64,000 nt of DNA, taken from a virus. Its lineage: Duplodnaviria > Caudoviricetes. The stretch is taken from IMG/VR virus record IMGVR_UViG_3300027782_000030, positions 1 through 64,000 of that record, one strand, 5' to 3'. Shown one piece after another: positions 8,579 through 22,053 of this stretch (its first letter is position 1; the number at the start of each line of letters is the position of its first letter). The translations under genes and the position numbers were made by a program. The notes under the pieces were generated by a model. It ran no database searches. It saw only the letters and a program-made list of their open reading frames with translations, and was not told the DNA's origin.

Positions 8579-8779
8579 CTATTTGACTTTTTTCAGGTAC
8601 TCTCTGCCTATTAGGCCTTGTTCAATTTCTTGCAATGCGGTAATAGCAGTTAGATTAGTTGTTTCAACTTTAGGTTTATAACCACGCTTTAATTCTCTTT
8701 GTCTTACAGCCGCAATTAAAATTAAATCATAACAATTACCAATTGCTTTAATAGCTTTTTCAGAACTAATTCTAGGCAT
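8579..8779 (-). CDS. rpoZ: RNA polymerase omega subunit homologue
   Basis: MPRISSEKA..IGNCYDLILIAAVRQREL..G..P.V...TAITALQEIEQG matches the RpoZ pattern (IGNRFDLVL.AA.RARQL...ALREI..G). Confidence 0.8.
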   Translation of the reverse strand: MPRISSEKAIKAIGNCYDLILIAAVRQRELKRGYKPKVETTNLTAITALQEIEQGLIGREYLKKVK

Positions 8780-8795
8780 ATAATTTCCTTTTGCT

Positions 8796-9248
8796 TTATT
8801 TATTAAAAACTTTTTGTATTTTAATACCACATTTATTTAAAAAATATACCCCATCTTCAGATCGGTAATCTTCTCCGTAATAGACTTCAGATATACCTGC
8901 TTGATATATTCCTTTCGCACATTCTAAACACGGAGCATGAGTTACAAATAAAGATGCTTTATTACCTGATCCATTAGTTTTTGCTAATTTCATTAATGCA
9001 TTCATTTCAGCATGTAATACTTCAGGTCTAGTTTTTAGTGTACAAGTATTATCTAATTCTTCACAAGGTGAAACAGGTATTTCATCTTCGCAATTGTTAT
9101 CCCAGCCAGCAGGCGTACCGTTATAACCATAACTGATAACACAATCATCTTTTACGATAACTGCACCAACTTGTAGCCTACGGGCATAACTTAATTGGGC
9201 AACTCGGGTAGCCCAATCCATATATAGATTAATAAATTTTTGTTTCAT
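8796..9248 (-). CDS. dCMP deaminase
   Basis: GYNGTP, HAEMNAL and PCLEC zinc motifs. Confidence 0.92.
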   Translation of the reverse strand: MKQKFINLYMDWATRVAQLSYARRLQVGAVIVKDDCVISYGYNGTPAGWDNNCEDEIPVSPCEELDNTCTLKTRPEVLHAEMNALMKLAKTNGSGNKASLFVTHAPCLECAKGIYQAGISEVYYGEDYRSEDGVYFLNKCGIKIQKVFNK

Positions 9249-9330: not shown

Positions 9331-10358
9331 GCTTTCAATGTAGCATTTACTCTACGAACACTGTGACTAATACCACAGTACTGTGTACACTTTGACATAA
9401 CATTCCTTAAGTTGTCAGTACCATACCAAAATCTTTTCAAGTCACCGTATCTCTTTATTTTAAACCCAGGGAACTTATGTGAGAAGCATAAACGGGCAAT
9501 CCCATCCATATCTACCATAATATTTCTGTCGAAGGAATTACAAATCAATTTTTCAGTACCTCGACCATTCCAACCGATCACCGCATCGTTGTTTTTGTGA
9601 ACACTACGATGGTACATCTCAACTGTTTCAATCCATTCAGGATCTAAACTTAGGTTATATTTTTCATTACAATCATTTAATATTTTAAACAACCCTTCAT
9701 GATCTCTAATGACATTGTTGTCGTAAAACTTATCAGCCCGTTGTTTGCCATCTTTATCTATCAGTGTACCAAACATTGGCTGAAGCCAATTTAATTTTAA
9801 CTTATCTGCTTTTAGATCATTCAATACAAAGTCATAAAATTTATCTAAATCTCTGTAATTTTGTTCGCACATTATAGACATTGCGTATACAGGATTAGAT
9901 TTATTTAATTCTTTTCTTGCTTGAAGCAATAGACGAATAGCATTAACAGCCATATCAAATGATCCTACCATGCCTCTAGTTGAATCATGTACTTCAGGTA
10001 TATAACTGTTTAGTGATATAGTAATCTCAGTTGGACCTTCAACGATTAACTTTTTAGCCATTGACAAATCAGTAACCATTGTACCGTTCATCACTGATAA
10101 ACATCTTAGTCCTAATTGGCGACAATATCTAGTAATTGGCCAATATCTTTCAGGATTCATTAATGCTTCACCGCCACATATTACTACTGCACCATGTGGA
10201 TTTAATTCATGAAATTCCTGAATAATATTCCCGCGTTCTTCTATAGTGATATGAGTAGGTAATACAACTTCTTCCCTAGTCCAATACATGCAGGTTTTAC
10301 ATTTTAGATTACACTGTAAGTTAGTATCTAAGAATAGAAATTTTGGCGGGTGATTCAT
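9321..10358 (-). CDS. Radical SAM protein with C-terminal Cys cluster
   Basis: CNLKCKTC motif, GGEAL; stop codon lies within tRNA-Gly. Confidence 0.88.
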   Translation of the reverse strand: MNHPPKFLFLDTNLQCNLKCKTCMYWTREEVVLPTHITIEERGNIIQEFHELNPHGAVVICGGEALMNPERYWPITRYCRQLGLRCLSVMNGTMVTDLSMAKKLIVEGPTEITISLNSYIPEVHDSTRGMVGSFDMAVNAIRLLLQARKELNKSNPVYAMSIMCEQNYRDLDKFYDFVLNDLKADKLKLNWLQPMFGTLIDKDGKQRADKFYDNNVIRDHEGLFKILNDCNEKYNLSLDPEWIETVEMYHRSVHKNNDAVIGWNGRGTEKLICNSFDRNIMVDMDGIARLCFSHKFPGFKIKRYGDLKRFWYGTDNLRNVMSKCTQYCGISHSVRRVNATLKARV

Positions 10359-10366
10359 TAATCTAT

Positions 10367-11035
10367 TTATGCAGGTTTATGCCCACTACTGTCAGTACCT
10401 GTTAATATCCAAGACTTTTCATGTCCTATTTGTATTGTAGGATCTCCCCATATAGTATATCCTAATTGTTTTACTCTGTGACAAAATCCTGTATCTTCTG
10501 ATAAAAAGGTTTCTCTTTCACTATCAGAAAATACTAGAGGTTTGAACCACGGGAATGTCAATGATTCAAATACACCCTTTTGAACACCCATGAATCCCAT
10601 GCCAGTTGCTAATAATTCAATTCGCTCGCCATTAACATCGACCTCATTCCTAGGCATCCAATTCATTGTGTTTTTTTCTTTACCTTCAACTGCCTGTGCG
10701 TATATTTTATTATTGTGTTGAATATAAAATCCAGTTACAATTTTATGTTCGGGGTTACTAATTAGTTTTTCTAAATCCTTAGGTGTCCAAACGCTATCAC
10801 TATCAATCCAAACAATCCAATCGTATTTTACTTTTCCATTAAATGGCTTGAAATCTTTAGGAGGATATCCTGTTCCACCTAATAACCAATTACGGCAATT
10901 ATAAATTACAGGTGTATAAGTAGTGCTAACATTAAATGCTATACCTTCTTTGTTTAACCAATTAACCGTATTAGTCCAACATGTCACCCACGTTCTACTA
11001 AATGACATTCCAGGAAAACAAAATACTATATTCAT
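10367..11035 (-). CDS. GT-A-fold glycosyltransferase-like protein
   Basis: WIDSD (DxD), ATGMGF, SEDTGFC, GHEK motifs. Confidence 0.7.
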   Translation of the reverse strand: MNIVFCFPGMSFSRTWVTCWTNTVNWLNKEGIAFNVSTTYTPVIYNCRNWLLGGTGYPPKDFKPFNGKVKYDWIVWIDSDSVWTPKDLEKLISNPEHKIVTGFYIQHNNKIYAQAVEGKEKNTMNWMPRNEVDVNGERIELLATGMGFMGVQKGVFESLTFPWFKPLVFSDSERETFLSEDTGFCHRVKQLGYTIWGDPTIQIGHEKSWILTGTDSSGHKPA

Positions 11036-11049
11036 AATTATTATTAATT

Positions 11050-11123
11050 TGGTGCCTCGTGACAGAATCGAACTGCCGAAACCGCCGTGTAAAGACGGAG
11101 TTATACCATTTAACTAACGAGGC
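11050..11123 (-). tRNA. trnV: tRNA-Val(TAC)
   Basis: Cloverleaf; loop TT-TAC-AC; CCA. Confidence 0.92.
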
Positions 11124-11133
11124 TTTTTTACTT

Positions 11134-11262
11134 TTAACCTTGCCCTCTATATTTTTTAAAACTTCTTTTTTCTGTTTTATTTAGAGTGCTAGTCTTAACC
11201 TTTCCACCTTGACTAGTTCGTTTAACAACCGATTTTGTAGTACCCTCAGATGCCTTAGCCAT
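11134..11262 (-). CDS. Small very basic protein (42 aa, ...KRSFKKYRGQG)
   Basis: AAGGA RBS and a GTAAATA late-type motif upstream; below ORF-track cutoff. Confidence 0.6.
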   Translation of the reverse strand: MAKASEGTTKSVVKRTSQGGKVKTSTLNKTEKRSFKKYRGQG

Positions 11263-11321
11263 ATAATATCCTTTTTAAAAATGTACAGTATTTACTTAGA
11301 ATACAGATACAGAAAAAAATA

Positions 11322-11759
11322 TTAAGCTAGGTATTCGTAATTGACAGTTTCTTTATTGGCTCTGAATACCGAAGCCCCATTCTTTAAATGAAATCTACGG
11401 GCCATTTCAGTTGGTGGGCTTAATGTTACAAACCTACTAATATGGGGTTTATTGGATTTAATGTAGTCTACTGCGTTTAAAATTAAATCTCTTCCAGCAC
11501 CTGGCTTATAACTCCATATAGTATAGAATATAGCCATGTTAGGATTGCTACCAAGATTAAACAATTCACTTTCTGTTGTAGGTATTTGATCTTGATAACT
11601 AACACAAGTAATTGCTTTTACCGTATTATTTTCGTCTTTTAAAACAAATATGTCTCTATTATTTCCTATTCTAATTGAATGTGGTATATTAGGACGAACG
11701 GGGTCCTCAGCCAAACGGGTAAACAATTCATCTTGGTCTGATTTAATCAAGTATAACAT
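11322..11759 (-). CDS. GNAT-like hypothetical protein
   Basis: FYTIWSYKPGAG...VTLSP...RFHLKNGA; true start MLYLIK (ORF-track start overlaps tRNA-Leu). Confidence 0.55.
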   Translation of the reverse strand: MLYLIKSDQDELFTRLAEDPVRPNIPHSIRIGNNRDIFVLKDENNTVKAITCVSYQDQIPTTESELFNLGSNPNMAIFYTIWSYKPGAGRDLILNAVDYIKSNKPHISRFVTLSPPTEMARRFHLKNGASVFRANKETVNYEYLA

Positions 11760-11797
11760 ATTGCTATTTATTATATGTAGATATAAAAGATATATTT

Positions 11798-11881
11798 TGG
11801 TGCCCCAGGTCGGACTCGAACCGACACGCATTTCTGCACTGGCTTCTAAGACCAGCATGGCTACCGTTACATCACCGGGGC
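11798..11881 (-). tRNA. trnL: tRNA-Leu(TAG)
   Basis: Long variable arm; CT-TAG-AA loop; CCA. Confidence 0.92.
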
Positions 11882-11890
11882 TAATATAAT

Positions 11891-11964
11891 TGGAGCGGGT
11901 AGAGGGAATCGAACCCTCGTATGCAGCTTGGAAGGCTGCCGTTCTACCATTGAACTACACCCGC
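11891..11964 (-). tRNA. trnG: tRNA-Gly(TCC)
   Basis: GCAGC-CTTCCAA-GCTGC; CCA. Confidence 0.95.
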
Positions 11965-11969
11965 ACTGT

Positions 11970-12059
11970 TGGTGGAAGCGGTGAGATTCGAACTCACGGA
12001 CCCCTTTCAGGGCCTTTAGTTTTCAAGACTAACGCAATAGGCCTCTCTGCCACGCTTCC
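11970..12059 (-). tRNA. trnS: tRNA-Ser(TGA)
   Basis: TTAGT-CTTGAAA-ACTAA; long variable arm; CCA. Confidence 0.93.
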
Positions 12060-12065
12060 TATATA

Positions 12066-12316
12066 GGGTGCTCTGCGTCCCTCGGCGGTAGTTATAGTAC
12101 ATCAAGCATATAGACCTCAGAACAACAATTAGTTCTTACCACATACTATCACACATACTTCACCCGCTCACGACAGGGACCGTTCTCGCATTGCCAGCGC
12201 CGGTTAGGTTAGACCGCATGTCGCCATGTGAAGATATTACTCTTCAGAACCACCCGTACATATCACTGTACTTCATATCCTCTGGGTCAGAGTATCCGTT
12301 GATTAGACGGAACGTC
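12066..12316 (-). ncRNA. Putative ~250-nt multi-helix structured RNA, family unassigned
   Basis: ORF-free, GC-richer than flanks; nested and local helices (GGGTGGTTCTG/CAGAGCACCC, GTCCCT/AGGGAC, TCCGT/ACGGA, CTCTG/CAGAG, GTACA/TGTAC, GAAGA/TCTTC, AGAAC/GTTCT). Confidence 0.65.
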
Positions 12317-12317
12317 T

Positions 12318-12405
12318 TGGCGGAGCGTTAGGGAGTCGAACCCTATCAACGATTACTCGTTGTACAGATTAGCAATCTGCTGCCTTACCATCCGGCCCAC
12401 GCTCC
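12318..12405 (-). tRNA. trnS: tRNA-Ser(GCT)
   Basis: TT-GCT-AA loop; long variable arm; CCA. Confidence 0.93.
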
Positions 12406-12409
12406 ATAA

Positions 12410-12475
12410 TGGATGAAAGAAGTGCGGGGGAAGGAGCAGTTACTCATCATCCGTTGTTTATCCCACACTCTTTCA
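12410..12475 (-). ncRNA. Long-stem small RNA ending in NCCA
   Basis: TGAAAGA-GTGTGGG pairs with CCCGCAC-T-TCTTTCA, followed by TCCA. Confidence 0.45.
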
Positions 12476-12478
12476 ACT

Positions 12479-12555
12479 TGGTGCCTCCGGAGGGACTTGA
12501 ACCCCCAACCAACGGCTTATGAGGCCGCTGCTCTAACCGATTGAGCTACAAAGGC
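12479..12555 (-). tRNA. tRNA-Met or Ile2 (CAT)
   Basis: GCGGC-CTCATAA-GCCGT; G1-C72 pair so not initiator; Met vs lysidine-Ile not resolvable by eye. Confidence 0.88.
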
Positions 12556-12974
12556 AATTCTTTTTTGTAATACTTTGCTAAATTATTCTTAGACCAACGA
12601 CCATTTCCCCGATTTGCACCAGCGAAATTTTCTGTTTGACTATGACAATTGGGACAAAGCAATCGCAAATTCTTTGGTTCGTTATTGTCAGCATTGCCAT
12701 CTATATGATCTACCTGCAAAACAATCTCTTTGCCATTGTATTCTGAAATACTACAGCATTCACATTTATAACCTCGTAACTCTGAAAGAATCTTTCTAAT
12801 TCTAGGTCTATGTGATACTTTACCCTCCATAAATTCTTGCTTACTTTTTTCGTGTATTTGTTTGGACCTTAGTTCAAGTTGACACTTATTGTTGCAGTAC
12901 TTATGTGTATAAGTATAACCCTTAAAAGGGATAAGGCTATCGCAATTCAGACATTTAAAAATATTATTTTTCAT
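12546..12974 (-). CDS. HNH (homing) endonuclease
   Basis: CECC...VDHIDGNADNN...NLRLLCPNCHS; N-terminal C..C/YCNNKCQ zinc motif; stop inside tRNA(CAT). Confidence 0.9.
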   Translation of the reverse strand: MKNNIFKCLNCDSLIPFKGYTYTHKYCNNKCQLELRSKQIHEKSKQEFMEGKVSHRPRIRKILSELRGYKCECCSISEYNGKEIVLQVDHIDGNADNNEPKNLRLLCPNCHSQTENFAGANRGNGRWSKNNLAKYYKKELPL

Positions 12975-13012
12975 GGTTAAAGCACTCTCTACTACTTATT
13001 TATGCCTTAACC
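12975..13012 (-). promoter_or_regulatory. Late promoter inside a start-sequestering hairpin
   Basis: GGTTAAGGCA/TGCTTTAACC 10-bp stem ending at the HNH ATG; CATAAATA at 12997-13004. Confidence 0.65.
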
Positions 13013-13032
13013 GAAATAATCATTTGTATACT

Positions 13033-13118
13033 TGGTGCCCGGGGCCGGACTCGAACCGGCACGCCTTGTGAGCGAGAGATTTTAAGTCTCTTGTGTCTAC
13101 CTATTTCACCACCCGGGC
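13033..13118 (-). tRNA. trnL: tRNA-Leu(TAA)
   Basis: AGAGA-CTTAAAA-TCTCT; long variable arm; CCA. Confidence 0.95.
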
Positions 13119-13160
13119 GTTAATTTTTAAAGAACTTCTGATTTCTCAGTGTATGTATAC

Positions 13161-13189
13161 ATTGTACACGACACCTGAACATTTGTCAA
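13161..13189 (-). promoter_or_regulatory. sigma70-type promoter for a tRNA block
   Basis: TTGACA-N17-TACAAT with TG. Confidence 0.8.
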
Positions 13190-13777
13190 TTATTTTAAGA
13201 GGCTTTCTACCCGATCTACAACTAGATCCCAATGTTCAGTAAACCTGTGACCACCGTTCTCTAAGACGGTCGTTGTTGCGTAAGGAAAGCCTTCTAGCAT
13301 AGACTCATAGGGGATGACCTCATCATCTTTAGCGACAAACAAGCTTATCAAGCTAGGTTCATATATCCTACGAACATATTCTCGCATATCGTCTAGCTTA
13401 TCCAAGTGGGCTAGAGAAACCAAAAATTCTTCACCAGTATGATAGTTTTTATTGGGTCCCAACTTCTCCTTAAGAGTCTCACTGGGTGTAACACTAGGGT
13501 TGACTAACACAGCACAACTGTCATATAAGTGACCGAAATGATTTGCGTAGAATGCTCCTAGACTAGTGCCAACGAATACCAATTTTTCATCTGGTCCCCT
13601 AGTTTTCATAAAGTTATGCACAATATTGTGCATTAGCGAGAACACTTCATCGGGGTCAAAAGGAAGATCGGGAGCGATTACCTTATCGTCGCCGAACCGT
13701 TCCTTAAGCGCAGTGACCTTATCACTAGCACCTGAACTCGCAAAACCGTGTAAGTAAACTATCATGTTGATGTCCAA
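13190..13777 (-). CDS. YqiA/YcfP-family alpha/beta-hydrolase (esterase)
   Basis: YLHGFASS, GTSLG nucleophile elbow, GGHRF. Confidence 0.88.
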   Translation of the reverse strand: MDINMIVYLHGFASSGASDKVTALKERFGDDKVIAPDLPFDPDEVFSLMHNIVHNFMKTRGPDEKLVFVGTSLGAFYANHFGHLYDSCAVLVNPSVTPSETLKEKLGPNKNYHTGEEFLVSLAHLDKLDDMREYVRRIYEPSLISLFVAKDDEVIPYESMLEGFPYATTTVLENGGHRFTEHWDLVVDRVESLLK

Positions 13778-13796
13778 AAGTTTCTATCTGAACTAT

Positions 13797-13825
13797 AGTA
13801 TAGCAAACTATAAAATAATTGTCAA
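13797..13825 (-). promoter_or_regulatory. sigma70-type promoter
   Basis: TTGACA-N17-TATACT with TG. Confidence 0.8.
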
Positions 13826-14451
13826 ATTTTGGATGCGATATTATCAGGAAGATTCTTTAAATCAAAGCCTAAATTAGCTAATTTTTCTTTACCTTGTGGA
13901 CTTAATTTGACAAATCCAACTATTATCTTTTCATGCGGTTCACCCTGAATTAATCTAGTATAATGATATCCATCAGGGTTTAATTCTAATATCTTTTTAC
14001 CAGTTAAAAACTCAGCATATTTATTGTCAATTGGCTTTGCGCCTGCTTTAAGCATTATTTTTTCAGCAGGTCCGCTTACTTCTGCCCATGCTCTTTTTGT
14101 TTTAATGTCATCATTTTTGAGCATATTATAATCTTTTAATCCTTGTGTAGTGGCTTTATATTTACCTTCAGGATTAAGTTCTGTTTCAGTAGCACTAGCA
14201 ATCATTTTAAAATTATCCGTATTAGGTACTTGTTTATAAACACCTAATGCAGTTATGTGATCACCACGGCGAACTACTTTCCAATAACCAGGATCATTTG
14301 CTAATTCTTCAGGACTATTGGCACTTTTAAAGCCGCCAATCTTTTTGTAACTACGCTGAAGCATATCCCATATTTTATCCGCATACTTCATTTTTTCTTC
14401 AGGAGTATGTAGATTAAGAACCTTTTCAACTAATAATTGATGATAACGCAT
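13822..14451 (-). CDS. Hypothetical phage protein
   Basis: 209-aa ORF preceded by CATAAATA. Confidence 0.7.
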   Translation of the reverse strand: MRYHQLLVEKVLNLHTPEEKMKYADKIWDMLQRSYKKIGGFKSANSPEELANDPGYWKVVRRGDHITALGVYKQVPNTDNFKMIASATETELNPEGKYKATTQGLKDYNMLKNDDIKTKRAWAEVSGPAEKIMLKAGAKPIDNKYAEFLTGKKILELNPDGYHYTRLIQGEPHEKIIVGFVKLSPQGKEKLANLGFDLKNLPDNIASKI

Positions 14452-15404: not shown

Positions 15405-16301
15405 ATGAACAATATCTATTTACTTGCATTTAATGGCGGATCAGGAGGAGATTTTTTATGCTCTCAAATCTCTAAAGATAGTGATTTTTATCCATTAGAA
15501 TATAAAATTAATCCTATTACCAATACCTATGATTTAGAAAATCCATTTGCAAAATGGAATTTAAATACAAAAAACCAATTCATGCAAGATTTACTAGTTA
15601 CTACCGACAATACATTAGAAAATATAGATTTACATTATAATGAAAAAAATTTAGTAGCACCTATTCATTTTTTTAGTTATTTTAATCAAGCGCATTTAGA
15701 TACAATATATAGATTACCTAGACTTAAGATAATTAGAGTATATAGTAATCAATTAACTCCCCTTTTTTATTTATTACTATGGATAAAAAGATGGGTTCTC
15801 ATACAAGAGTGTGAAAATAAAGAGATTTTTATTAGAGAACACATTTCAATATATACCTCTAAATTCCATATATCTACTAGAAATAAAATACTTGATAGCA
15901 TATTTGCAAATAGAAATTATTATTATGCATTTGAAATTTTAGCCATGTCAAATTTATTTAATAATTCCACGGATTTTGTTAAGAATTTTTTTTTAAAAAA
16001 ATATAATTATTATAATACCTTCGTTCAAAATAACACTGGTAAATGGATTCCATATAATATAGATAATCTCTACTTAGACCCAGTTAATAACTCAGAAGAA
16101 TTTTGTCAACTTTTAAATATGGAAAAACCAATCGATCCCGAAATTATTTCAAACTACTACTTTAGAAATTTACAGGTAATCGAAGAAACATTTGGCGAAC
16201 CATATGAAGTTTTTATTCTAGGTGATTGGTTATCAAAATTAACAGAATGGGTACAAATTCAGTGCCCAAATGCATATTCAGTCGATTTTAAAATTTTGTA
16301 A
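15405..16301 (+). CDS. Hypothetical protein, paralogue 2 (GGSGGDFL N-terminus)
   Basis: 298 aa; shares long identical tracts with 14506-15396. Confidence 0.7.
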   Translation: MNNIYLLAFNGGSGGDFLCSQISKDSDFYPLEYKINPITNTYDLENPFAKWNLNTKNQFMQDLLVTTDNTLENIDLHYNEKNLVAPIHFFSYFNQAHLDTIYRLPRLKIIRVYSNQLTPLFYLLLWIKRWVLIQECENKEIFIREHISIYTSKFHISTRNKILDSIFANRNYYYAFEILAMSNLFNNSTDFVKNFFLKKYNYYNTFVQNNTGKWIPYNIDNLYLDPVNNSEEFCQLLNMEKPIDPEIISNYYFRNLQVIEETFGEPYEVFILGDWLSKLTEWVQIQCPNAYSVDFKIL

Positions 16302-17234
16302 TATAGGAACCCATTGTTCTCTTAGTTGAGTCATACTATTTTTAAAACCAGCAGGTGTTAATTCTCTTTCTTCTATAAACATATAATTTTGATCAAAAAA
16401 CTTTTTGGCTTCAACAGATCGTATTGTACGAGAAAAGTTTTCCACATACCATTTAACTATATCCTGATCAATACCTTTGGGCAATATTATACCCCAAGCT
16501 GCATATACATTCATTCCCGGCACCCATCGATTCATCAATGGAGCATCAATTCCTGCTATAGGTTTTTCACCACATATGCCAATAAATTTAATTTTTCCAC
16601 TAGACAACAATGTAGCGGCTACCGCAGTAGGGACAATACCAAACTCAACATGACCTCCGGCAACGTCTTGTGCGGCTTGAGCAGGACCTTTATATCCCAC
16701 AGTCTTAACTAAATCACTGACTTTGACTTTGGTAGTCATATATTCAAATGCTAATTTATGAGCACCGCTACCAGCAGCAAAAGTAATAGGTTTGTCGGTA
16801 TTTTTAATTTTTTCTAATAATTCAGGCACACTATTAACAGTGCTACCACTATAAGCAATAATGGCTAATGGACTTTTGCCAATGGTAACTACATATTCAA
16901 AATCTTCTAAAGTATATTTTACAGCTGGTTTATTGAAGAATTCAGCAGTGACCCAAATTCCTTGATGACTAGGCACATATAAATGATAGCCATCTGCTGG
17001 CTTTTTGATGAATTCATTCATAGCCACCACACCATCTGCGCCTGGCTTGTTTTCAATAACGAAATTAATTTTAGGATTAGATTTTTCTAATATACTACCA
17101 ATACCACGAAACCCTATTTCATTACCCGATCCTGGTGCGAACCCTATCAGTACATTAATAGGTTTAGTTGGTTCCCAAGCTAAGGCCAACATTGATGATG
17201 TTGCTAATAGCAAACTAATAAATGCTTTTTTCAT
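16278..17234 (-). CDS. Bug/TctC tripartite tricarboxylate transporter substrate-binding protein
   Basis: Signal peptide; P.KPI...IGFAPG, ENKPGADG, YKG...AQDVAGGHV motifs. Confidence 0.88.
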   Translation of the reverse strand: MKKAFISLLLATSSMLALAWEPTKPINVLIGFAPGSGNEIGFRGIGSILEKSNPKINFVIENKPGADGVVAMNEFIKKPADGYHLYVPSHQGIWVTAEFFNKPAVKYTLEDFEYVVTIGKSPLAIIAYSGSTVNSVPELLEKIKNTDKPITFAAGSGAHKLAFEYMTTKVKVSDLVKTVGYKGPAQAAQDVAGGHVEFGIVPTAVAATLLSSGKIKFIGICGEKPIAGIDAPLMNRWVPGMNVYAAWGIILPKGIDQDIVKWYVENFSRTIRSVEAKKFFDQNYMFIEERELTPAGFKNSMTQLREQWVPILQNFKID

Positions 17235-20415: not shown

Positions 20416-20527
20416 AATTCTATGGCTCCGGTGGATGGAATCGAACCACCACTAGCGGTTTTGGAGACCGCCGCACTGCCATTATACTACACCGGAATTG
20501 TTTGGTGGAGTGTACTGGGATCGAACC
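20416..20527. repeat. 112-bp direct repeat A, copy 1 (tRNA-Trp plus 3' end of tRNA-Tyr)
   Basis: Identical to 21814-21925. Confidence 0.9.
20423..20496 (-). tRNA. trnW: tRNA-Trp(CCA), copy 1
   Basis: GCGGT-CTCCAAA-ACCGC; CCA. Confidence 0.92.
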
Positions 20528-20577
20528 CGTCTTTCCAGCGTGAAAGGCTAGCGTCCTAACCAATAGACGAACCGAGC
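20503..20577 (-). pseudogene. Chimeric tRNA: 5' tRNA-Glu(TTC) fused in the T-loop to 3' tRNA-Tyr
   Basis: 5' strand GCTCGGT cannot pair with 3' ACACTCC; junction in shared TTCGA. Confidence 0.85.
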
Positions 20578-21813: not shown

Positions 21814-21925
21814 AATTCTATGGCTCCGGTGGATGGAATCGAACCACCACTAGCGGTTTTGGAGACCGCCGCACTGCCATTATACTACACCGGAATTGTT
21901 TGGTGGAGTGTACTGGGATCGAACC
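21814..21925. repeat. 112-bp direct repeat A, copy 2
   Basis: Identical to 20416-20527. Confidence 0.9.
21821..21894 (-). tRNA. trnW: tRNA-Trp(CCA), copy 2
   Basis: Identical to 20423-20496. Confidence 0.92.
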
Positions 21926-21986
21926 AGTCGTGCCATAAAGACGGCGGATTTACAGTCCACTGCATCACCATTGATGCTTCCACTCC
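21901..21986 (-). tRNA. trnY: tRNA-Tyr(GTA)
   Basis: CT-GTA-AA loop; long variable arm; CCA. Confidence 0.93.
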
Positions 21987-22053
21987 ATATTGAAACACAC
22001 TCTTCTCTTTATGGTCGCCGCCTAGGTTCGGCTCAGAATGTGCTTCAATATGG
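21985..22053 (-). ncRNA. tRNA-trailer structured RNA, copy type B
   Basis: 15-bp stem CCATATTGAAGCACA/TGTGTTTCAATATGG with one G-U pair that works only on the minus strand; related to 18945-19054. Confidence 0.5.

What the first reader, a model, noticed from the sequence alone, without database searches (positions are those of the whole stretch)
12066..12316. Ornate ~250-nt structured RNA between two tRNA-Ser genes
Seen on the minus strand: an ORF-free, GC-richer stretch with about nine helices, including a closing GGGTGGTTCTG/CAGAGCACCC stem, a nested GTCCCT/AGGGAC stem, an anticodon-arm-like TCCGT-CTAATCA-ACGGA hairpin and a possible ATAGTA/TACTAT alternative pairing. Established: phage tRNA clusters host stable non-tRNA RNAs (T4 species 1/2; GOLLD RNA near tRNAs). 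I cannot assign a family.
Basis: partly seen in the sequence, partly recalled or inferred. Interest (0 to 1): 0.65.

Follow-up and report, generated by a model that had tools for sequence, protein, structure and literature searches.

The report
Knotted phage RNA among tRNA genes
This stretch is the gene for a tightly folded, multiply knotted RNA that many uncultured T4-like phages keep between their tRNA genes; I found it in no catalogue I could search, and its loop-to-loop contacts resemble those of phage RNAs that assemble into cages, but its job is untested.

Summary
The feature is real. Window 12069-12316 (minus strand) is an expanded member of a ~200-nt RNA family: 202 loci, 168 distinct sequences, with no Rfam match and none in cultured phages or sampled bacteria. 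Its helices covary strongly (96% of cells paired, 34 of 47 pairs compensated).

The 'closing stem' and the 'alternative pairing' are not conserved. The 'anticodon arm' loop instead kisses the loop of the third hairpin. Three crossing pairings and two lone tertiary contacts covary on shared tree branches.

The RNA starts within 5 nt of a tRNA 3' end in 58 of 107 copies, behind 11 tRNA types, and has no conserved protein neighbour. The best reading is a stable RNA cut from the tRNA operon that folds without protein and may oligomerise through its kissing loops, like manA, ROOL and GOLLD (function about 0.4). One GGU/ACC contact parallels manA's cage-building kiss, but it is not a manA member. 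The 3' arm echoes the ribosomal L1 stalk in layout only.

This scan has noted the family before in about 28 other genomes.

The parts
12069..12316 (-). Whole RNA gene; 248-nt expanded member of a ~200-nt family
   Evidence: Family covariance model scores 150.5 bits, E 6.7e-50, full length; single copy in the 200-kb record
12295..12311 (-). P1 hairpin (5 bp). Loop L1 (12300-12306) kisses L3 through 12300-12303; not an anticodon arm
   Evidence: 5 of 5 pairs compensated; L1/L3 complementarity of 4 bp or more in 30 of 41 loop combinations versus 16.0 +/- 2.4 shuffled, 0 of 2000
12280..12294 (-). P2 hairpin flanked by UA/GA; loop L2 (12284-12288) pairs with linker 12252-12255 (pseudoknot 1)
   Evidence: All 7 linker changes fall on branches where L2 changes, 0.33 expected
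12272..12279 (-). A-rich joiner J2/3; may pair 2 bp with the 5' leader (12313-12314) and lie in the P2 minor groove
   Evidence: Leader/joiner co-variants; the groove role is inference
12256..12271 (-). P3 hairpin (5 bp); loop L3 (12261-12266) is the kissing partner of L1
   Evidence: 29 shared changes versus 12.6 expected; controls 11 versus 8.7 and 16 versus 15.1
12249..12255 (-). Linker GGGUGGU: first four bases pair with L2, last three with L4 (pseudoknot 2)
   Evidence: A subtype changes linker, L2 and L4 together; few independent events for pseudoknot 2 (3 of 3 shared)
12217..12248 (-). Optional insertion of two small hairpins
   Evidence: An insertion at this site in 13 of 107 copies; folds
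12200..12217 (-). P4 hairpin with loop L4 (12205-12212) holding AACC
   Evidence: 4 of 5 pairs compensated; tertiary covariation between base 12256 and base 12210, 7 shared changes versus 0.86
12183..12199 (-). P5 (3 bp) with T-loop-like loop and joiner J5/6; lone pair 12190-12183
   Evidence: Lone pair U-A 93, C-G 11, G-C 1 of 107; 9 shared changes versus 0.63
12077..12181 (-). 3' arm: P6 (12174-12180 with 12077-12084), bulged T-loop-like motif 12168-12172, P7 (12164-12167 with 12085-12088), asymmetric loop, P8, k-turn (about 12149-12153 with 12102-12105), variable distal stem
   Evidence: P6, P7 and P8 covary; P7 paired in 98 of 98; k-turn-like pattern in 73 of 107, U.U at 3b/3n in 64 of 73
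12069..12072 (-). Near-invariant 3' tail AGCA; possibly a 2-bp GC/GC contact with the P5 loop
   Evidence: AGCA in 103 of 107, GC in all; the contact is inference, with no covariation
12318..12405 (-). Upstream tRNA-Ser(GCT); its CCA ends 1-2 nt before the RNA
11970..12059 (-). Downstream tRNA-Ser(TGA); RNase P cleavage at its 5' end would release the RNA's 3' end
   Evidence: processing is inferred from general knowledge
13161..13189 (-). Sigma-70-like promoter (11 of 12) ahead of the tRNA-Leu / HNH / tRNA-Met / tRNA-Ser / RNA / tRNA-Ser / tRNA-Gly / tRNA-Leu run
   Evidence: consensus match only (10 sites found versus 8.5 by chance), no terminator-like site in 11000-14000

Best explanation
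The stretch is a single-copy, free-standing non-coding RNA gene of large T4-like phages. SHOWN: a conserved fold of eight core helices, three crossing pairings (L1-L3 kiss, L2-linker, linker-L4), two lone tertiary contacts, and variation confined to peripheral arms. INFERRED: it is co-transcribed with the tRNA operon and released by ordinary tRNA processing (a cut just 3' of the upstream tRNA's CCA; RNase P at the next tRNA). INFERRED, weaker: it folds without a dedicated protein, and one or more of its loop-loop contacts form between copies, building a defined oligomer or cage as manA, ROOL and GOLLD do. That particle would act in trans during infection as a nuclease-resistant scaffold or sink for host or phage factors around translation. 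Existence as a structured RNA is about 0.93; the oligomeric-scaffold mechanism is about 0.4.
For: Covariation. Placement: within 5 nt of an upstream tRNA in 58 of 107 copies, behind 11 tRNA types, with all 1344 tRNAs in those loci on the same strand, so it is a movable module and not the partner of one tRNA. No protein family lies near it in more than 19 of 107 loci; no L7Ae gene in five carriers. manA sits between two tRNAs in S-CREM1 and has a GGUGGU loop, a variable hairpin, then a UAACC loop, the same order as linker / optional insertion / L4 here. The L5-L7' kiss of manA is intermolecular and builds pentamers and cages (10.64898/2026.07.01.735769; assigning L5 and L7 to those loops is my helix count on the Rfam structure). 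In ROOL, a kiss first read as tertiary from covariation proved quaternary (PMC12286853).
Against: Covariation cannot tell intramolecular from intermolecular pairing, and both pseudoknots have loop lengths that fit ordinary H-type knots in one molecule. There is no sequence or model match to manA, so the shared module may be convergent. No discrete or abundant transcript was shown (one search is uninformative). The invariant core around P5 and the tail could equally be a binding or catalytic site. Homologues were gathered with conserved patterns, which inflates apparent invariance.
Confidence: 0.4

Rival explanations
1. A monomeric RNA whose 3' arm works like the ribosomal L1 stalk: two T-loops interlock into a platform that stacks on the tRNA elbow, or the arm soaks up ribosomal protein uL1, making it a tRNA chaperone or translation decoy.
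For: Same order of parts as 23S H76-H78 (helix, bulged T-loop with an optional extra base, short helix, asymmetric loop ending in UA, helix, k-turn), seen against real 23S sequences. G2 and A5 of the first T-loop are conserved in all 107. P7 is GUGG/CCAC in 11 copies. The RNA lives among tRNAs.
Against: The defining AG..A / UG..A signature (PMC3664808) is not met: the first loop usually starts with a pyrimidine and the second has A in place of G. The H77-like register has a mismatch in 11 of 98 copies while the P7 register pairs in 98 of 98. Neither the profile nor the covariance model hits the L1 stalk in four rRNA loci. About ten homologues replace this loop, and the window copy has deleted part of it.
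Confidence: 0.2
2. A new ribozyme class, for example self-cleaving at its 5' end to trim the upstream tRNA as theta ribozymes do, or acting on another RNA through the invariant P5 / J5/6 / tail core.
For: Start within 5 nt of a tRNA 3' end in 58 of 107, a share like the 58% reported for theta ribozymes (PMC10879173). Multiple pseudoknots, fixed helix lengths, many invariant unpaired purines, no protein partner.
Against: Not the HDV nested double pseudoknot topology; no ribozyme family match in Rfam. The spacer between CCA and the leader varies, 32 of 107 copies lie more than 30 nt from the nearest upstream tRNA, and 9 loci hold no tRNA. One copy per genome could trim only one of 20-30 tRNAs in cis.
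Confidence: 0.12
3. A monomeric structured RNA that binds a small molecule or a host protein other than uL1 (for example through the k-turn or the invariant core) and acts as a trans sponge or sensor.
For: Box C/D-type k-turn in 73 of 107 with U.U at 3b/3n; OLE RNA binds a protein through a k-turn (title cited); riboswitch-like density of tertiary contacts.
Against: The k-turn is missing in about a third of copies. No L7Ae gene in the five carriers tested. No consistent downstream gene for cis control.
Confidence: 0.18
4. A remote homologue of manA.
For: Shared habitat (T4-like phages, between tRNAs), similar length, and the GGUGGU / variable hairpin / UAACC module.
Against: RF01745 finds nothing to E 10 in six carrier genomes; the family's HMM and covariance model miss a true manA; manA has an end-closing helix and GGUGGU as a hairpin loop, and this RNA has neither.
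Confidence: 0.06
5. A tRNA or anticodon mimic, or an RNA that pairs with the tRNA CCA end through UGGU as T-boxes do.
For: A 5-bp stem with a 7-nt loop in this copy; the linker matches the start of the T-box consensus (own knowledge).
Against: L1 varies in length and sequence and covaries with L3; the UGGU bases change together with L4 in a natural subtype, which an external CCA could not follow. No CCA end, and no tRNA call by ARAGORN or Rfam.
Confidence: 0.03
6. A chance-structured spacer.
For: Folding z-score only -0.99.
Against: 168 distinct homologous sequences with compensatory change throughout, while the neighbours change.
Confidence: 0.01

Closest known systems
manA RNA (RF01745; cryo-EM in 10.64898/2026.07.01.735769)
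   Same: About 200 nt, T4-like phages, can sit between tRNA genes, several kissing loops, GGUGGU then a variable hairpin then a UAACC loop.
   Different: No model match in either direction; no end-closing helix; GGUGGU is a linker in two pseudoknots; separate 3' arm with T-loop-like bulge and k-turn; oligomerisation not shown here.
GOLLD (RF02032) and ROOL RNAs (PMC12286853)
   Same: Ornate multi-pseudoknot phage RNAs near tRNA islands, no known protein partner, function unknown. A GOLLD lies about 3.5 kb from one homologue (L013).
   Different: Three to four times longer, unrelated sequence and secondary structure; no Rfam match.
23S rRNA L1 stalk H76-H78 and the double T-loop module (PMC3664808)
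   Same: Order of helices, bulged T-loop with an extra base, UA before the short helix, k-turn.
   Different: Signature AG..A / UG..A not met, helix register differs, no profile hit, loop dispensable in some members.
Theta ribozymes (PMC10879173)
   Same: Begins at the 3' end of phage tRNAs of many types; pseudoknotted.
   Different: Not HDV topology, much longer, spacer variable, cleavage untested.
T4 stable RNAs species 1 and 2 (own knowledge)
   Same: Non-tRNA RNAs inside a T4-like tRNA operon, released by tRNA processing.
   Different: No blastn match in 50,697 cultured phage records; no CCA end.

Membership tests
Any Rfam 15 family | Covariance model score at gathering threshold | tested here: not met
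   No hit over 12066-12316 at gathering or to E 10; none for 12 homologous loci; only tRNA-driven tmRNA fragments for a compact copy
manA (RF01745) | Model match | tested here: not met
   reverse search against S-CREM1 manA empty
manA (RF01745) | GGU/ACC loop-loop contact with a variable hairpin between the partners | tested here: met
   Covarying linker-L4 contact with optional insertion against the manA consensus; few independent changes
manA (RF01745) | End-closing helix and GGUGGU presented as a hairpin loop | tested here: not met
   No conserved closing helix; the linker is single-stranded in the nested fold
manA / ROOL / GOLLD | Protein-free homo-oligomer | not testable with these tools
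   Needs mass photometry or cryo-EM
L1 stalk / double T-loop | T-loop 1 of type AG..A in the bulge | tested here: inconclusive
   G2 and A5 are kept in 107 of 107 with an optional extra base, but position 1 is mostly C
L1 stalk / double T-loop | T-loop 2 of type UG..A | tested here: not met
   The loop reads UAYAA in most copies and is absent in about ten
L1 stalk / double T-loop | H77 register and profile similarity to 23S rRNA | tested here: not met
L1 stalk / double T-loop | Binding of the tRNA elbow or uL1 | not testable with these tools
   Needs a binding assay
Theta / HDV-like ribozyme | Nested double pseudoknot P1-P1.1-P2-P3 with the J4/2 catalytic C | tested here: not met
   Covarying topology differs; no Rfam HDV-type hit
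Theta / HDV-like ribozyme | 5' end within 5 nt of a tRNA 3' end | tested here: met
   58 of 107
Theta / HDV-like ribozyme | Self-cleavage | not testable with these tools
   Needs an in vitro assay
T-box leader | UGGN bulge free to pair with tRNA NCCA; specifier stem; downstream amino-acid gene | tested here: not met
   UGGU bases covary with L4; no Rfam T-box hit; no such gene context
SRP RNA helix 8 | Symmetric CAGG/AGCA loop with GNRA cap | tested here: not met
   The strand opposite AGCA is A-N-A-R with a variable second base; no Rfam SRP hit
RNase P RNA | P4 and conserved regions I-V; RF00010 match | tested here: not met
Candidate viral structured RNAs of PMC10690425 | Presence in that catalogue of over 10,000 candidates | not testable with these tools
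   No supplement held

The most novel reading that the evidence does not exclude
Probability: 0.1. Interest if true: 0.92.

Novelty: new member of a known kind. Interest (0 to 1): 0.62.

Why it matters
Ornate RNAs in phage tRNA islands (GOLLD, ROOL, manA) are an open problem: they fold into large assemblies and nobody knows why. This adds an unrelated family that is short, abundant in environmental T4-like phages and easy to transcribe. It comes with a covariation-derived map of three crossing pairings and with natural swap variants that serve as ready-made compensatory mutants. If it oligomerises through the GGU/ACC kiss, cage building would look like a repeatedly evolved property of tRNA-island RNAs. 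If it cleaves or binds tRNA, it is a new functional class.

Tried and rejected
Rfam at gathering and E-value thresholds on the window, on 12 homologous loci and on one compact copy: nothing. manA by model in six genomes, and the reverse search: nothing.

blastn against cultured phages and plasmids: only chance 19-30-nt matches. A pattern scan of 185,579 GTDB genomes gave four hits; none scored as a homologue (best E 0.007 for a fragment in L254). The family model found nothing in 151 sampled genomes of one phylum. This means not found in those searched, not absent.

L1-stalk homology: the by-eye likeness was strong, but the register test and the profile searches failed.

L7Ae and RNase P genes in five carriers: none.

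Expression: contigs from lake metatranscriptomes cover parts of the RNA at depth about 3-4, but neighbouring coding stretches are covered at similar depth and contigs cannot show ends or level, so this is no evidence either way.

Two degenerate scans were mostly noise. A literature search for family sequence words gave 0 papers. The 23S search in four MAGs was empty.

Full report
OBSERVATION. The flagged stretch lies on the minus strand between tRNA-Ser(GCT) at 12318-12405 and tRNA-Ser(TGA) at 11970-12059. It is 48.6% GC in a 35.8% GC window and has no minus-strand ORF of 40 aa or more. The window is the first 64 kb of a 200,570-base virus record estimated at 58% complete. It carries a T4-type major capsid gene, as do four other carriers tested. 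No Rfam family matches, even to E 10.

FAMILY. A 20-base exact pattern found 32 IMG/VR loci. Carriers include contigs of 320-525 kb. No homologue turned up in 50,697 cultured phage records, in plasmids, in a pattern scan of GTDB, or in 151 sampled bacterial genomes. A covariance model built from 70 compact members, without the window copy, scores the window at 150.5 bits over 12069-12316 and finds one copy in the record. The core is about 200 nt. This copy adds two small hairpins after the linker (an insertion site used in 13 of 107 copies) and a longer distal arm.

STRUCTURE, SHOWN. On the 70-sequence alignment, 47 proposed pairs are 96.3% paired, 34 have two-sided changes, and no shuffle or slid register comes close. 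Because relatives inflate such counts, I also counted changes on a tree built largely without the tested columns. L2 against the first four linker bases: 7 shared branches, 0.33 expected. The last three linker bases against L4: 3 against 0.09. The lone pair between the last base of the P5 loop and J5/6: 9 against 0.63. The base before the linker against an L4 base: 7 against 0.86. P7: 6 against 0.23. Whole loops L1 against L3: 29 against 12.6. Three control pairs sat at or near expectation. L1 and L3 are complementary over 4 bp or more in 30 of 41 distinct combinations, against 16.0 +/- 2.4 when partners are shuffled. Pseudoknot 2 rests on the fewest events, and its register in the swapped subtype is not unique.

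The order of parts is: leader, P1, P2, A-rich joiner, P3, linker, optional hairpins, P4, P5 with a T-loop-like loop, then a long arm (P6, bulged T-loop-like motif, P7, asymmetric loop, P8, usually a k-turn, variable stem), and a near-invariant AGCA tail. Core helix lengths are nearly fixed, which points to a defined three-dimensional fold (inference). The GC in the P5 loop and the GC in the tail are both invariant and could form a 2-bp contact. Six homologues carry one and the same GC-centred loop at both L1 and L3, which would allow a contact of that kind; this is inference without covariation.

The closing stem is complete in only 6 of 107 copies, and its strands have other, covarying partners. 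The proposed alternative pairing is complete in 7 of the 83 copies where the register could be set. The anticodon-like loop is the L1 half of the L1-L3 kiss. The GTCCCT/AGGGAC stem (P6) and the first hairpin (P1) are right.

CONTEXT. In 58 of 107 non-redundant copies the RNA starts within 5 nt of an upstream tRNA, of 11 different types. All 1344 tRNAs in those loci lie on the same strand, and 9 loci hold none. No protein family lies nearby in more than 19 loci. In the window an 11/12 sigma-70-like promoter at 13161-13189 precedes the tRNA run, and no terminator-like site lies between; this is a consensus match only. From general knowledge of tRNA operon processing, the RNA would be released by the cuts that mature its neighbours, as for the T4 stable RNAs. 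Lake metatranscriptome contigs touch the region but cannot show a discrete RNA.

HOW IT MOST LIKELY WORKS. The closest functional parallels are the ornate RNAs of phage tRNA islands. ROOL and GOLLD form protein-free cages, and a ROOL kiss first read as tertiary proved to be between molecules (PMC12286853). manA, of the same size as this RNA, builds pentamers and cages of up to 60 copies through L5-L7' and other kisses (10.64898/2026.07.01.735769). A real manA sits between two tRNAs in S-CREM1. Its consensus has a GGUGGU loop, a variable hairpin, then a UAACC loop; by my helix count these are L5, P6 and L7, the same order as linker, optional insertion and L4 here. I therefore favour a processed, protein-free RNA that oligomerises through some of its loop contacts and acts in trans as a scaffold or sink (0.4). 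The fold is shown; processing, oligomerisation and any target are inferred.

Membership is a separate question. It is not manA by model in either direction, and it lacks manA's closing helix.

RIVALS. The 3' arm has the layout of the ribosomal L1 stalk, which docks the tRNA elbow through two interlocked T-loops (PMC3664808; real 23S sequences). The defining AG..A / UG..A signature is only half met, the H77-like register loses to P7, profiles do not hit 23S, and the loop is altered in this copy and replaced in about ten others; 0.2. A ligand- or protein-binding monomer (k-turn in 73 of 107 copies; no L7Ae gene in five carriers) gets 0.18. A new ribozyme is suggested by the tRNA-adjacent start, as for theta ribozymes (PMC10879173), and by the invariant core, but the topology is not HDV-like and the spacer varies; 0.12. 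T-box-like CCA pairing, anticodon mimicry, SRP helix 8 and RNase P were tested and not met.

NOVELTY. No paper in the held library contains the family's sequence words. The catalogue of viral candidate RNAs in PMC10690425 could not be checked, so an unnamed prior prediction is possible. Earlier notes of this scan report look-alikes in 53 windows of 28 genomes; these are not independent support. What I established here, by my own tests, is the L1-L3 kiss, the tree-tested tertiary contacts, the manA parallel and the failed L1-stalk test. Verdict: a new family within a known kind (ornate phage tRNA-island RNAs of unknown function); interest 0.62.

Noticed in passing
window 12412-12478 (-): A separate long hairpin (about -23.5 kcal/mol) between tRNA-Met and tRNA-Ser(GCT), with no Rfam hit at gathering; possibly another small RNA module.
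   Followed up: partly
window 21987-22050 (-): A long hairpin whose ends match an element that directly follows the RNA in several homologous loci (for example L002, L015, L026); probably a second uncatalogued module of these tRNA operons.
   Followed up: partly
window 12546-12974 (-): An HNH endonuclease gene inside the tRNA run; its ORF ends 10 nt inside tRNA-Met (12479-12555).
   Followed up: partly
L015:1406-1468 (+), L028:12948-13010 (+), L128:1165-1228 (-): A truncated second copy of the RNA's 5' part (P1 and half of P2), followed by an ORF whose start looks like a GIY-YIG nuclease, 500-600 nt upstream of a complete copy; fits a homing endonuclease insertion with duplication.
   Followed up: no
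L350, L353, L354, L355, L375, L377, L384, L394 and others: A subtype keeps the 5' domain, P5, P6, the bulged motif and P7 but replaces the distal 3' arm with a larger branched domain holding recurrent CUGA and GAUG words (k-turn-like, apparently reversed).
   Followed up: partly
window 8579-8830 (-) and 16278-17234 (-): The phage carries an RNA polymerase omega-like gene (PF01192) and a TctC-family receptor gene (PF03401). By own knowledge TctC/Bug genes are typical of Betaproteobacteria, a weak host hint.
   Followed up: partly
window 21904-21986 and 20512-20572 (-): Two weak tRNA-like Rfam hits (34.3 and 29.8 bits) that ARAGORN does not call; possibly degenerate tRNAs.
   Followed up: no
L013:311-775 (-); L004, L005, L020, L023: A GOLLD RNA lies about 3.5 kb from a family member in L013, and permuted tmRNA genes lie in four other loci, so these RNAs co-occur.
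   Followed up: no
L510 (S-CREM1 10215-10429): manA, usually described as a cis-regulatory 5' UTR element, sits flush between tRNA-Leu and tRNA-Asn, which fits a processed trans RNA better.
   Followed up: partly
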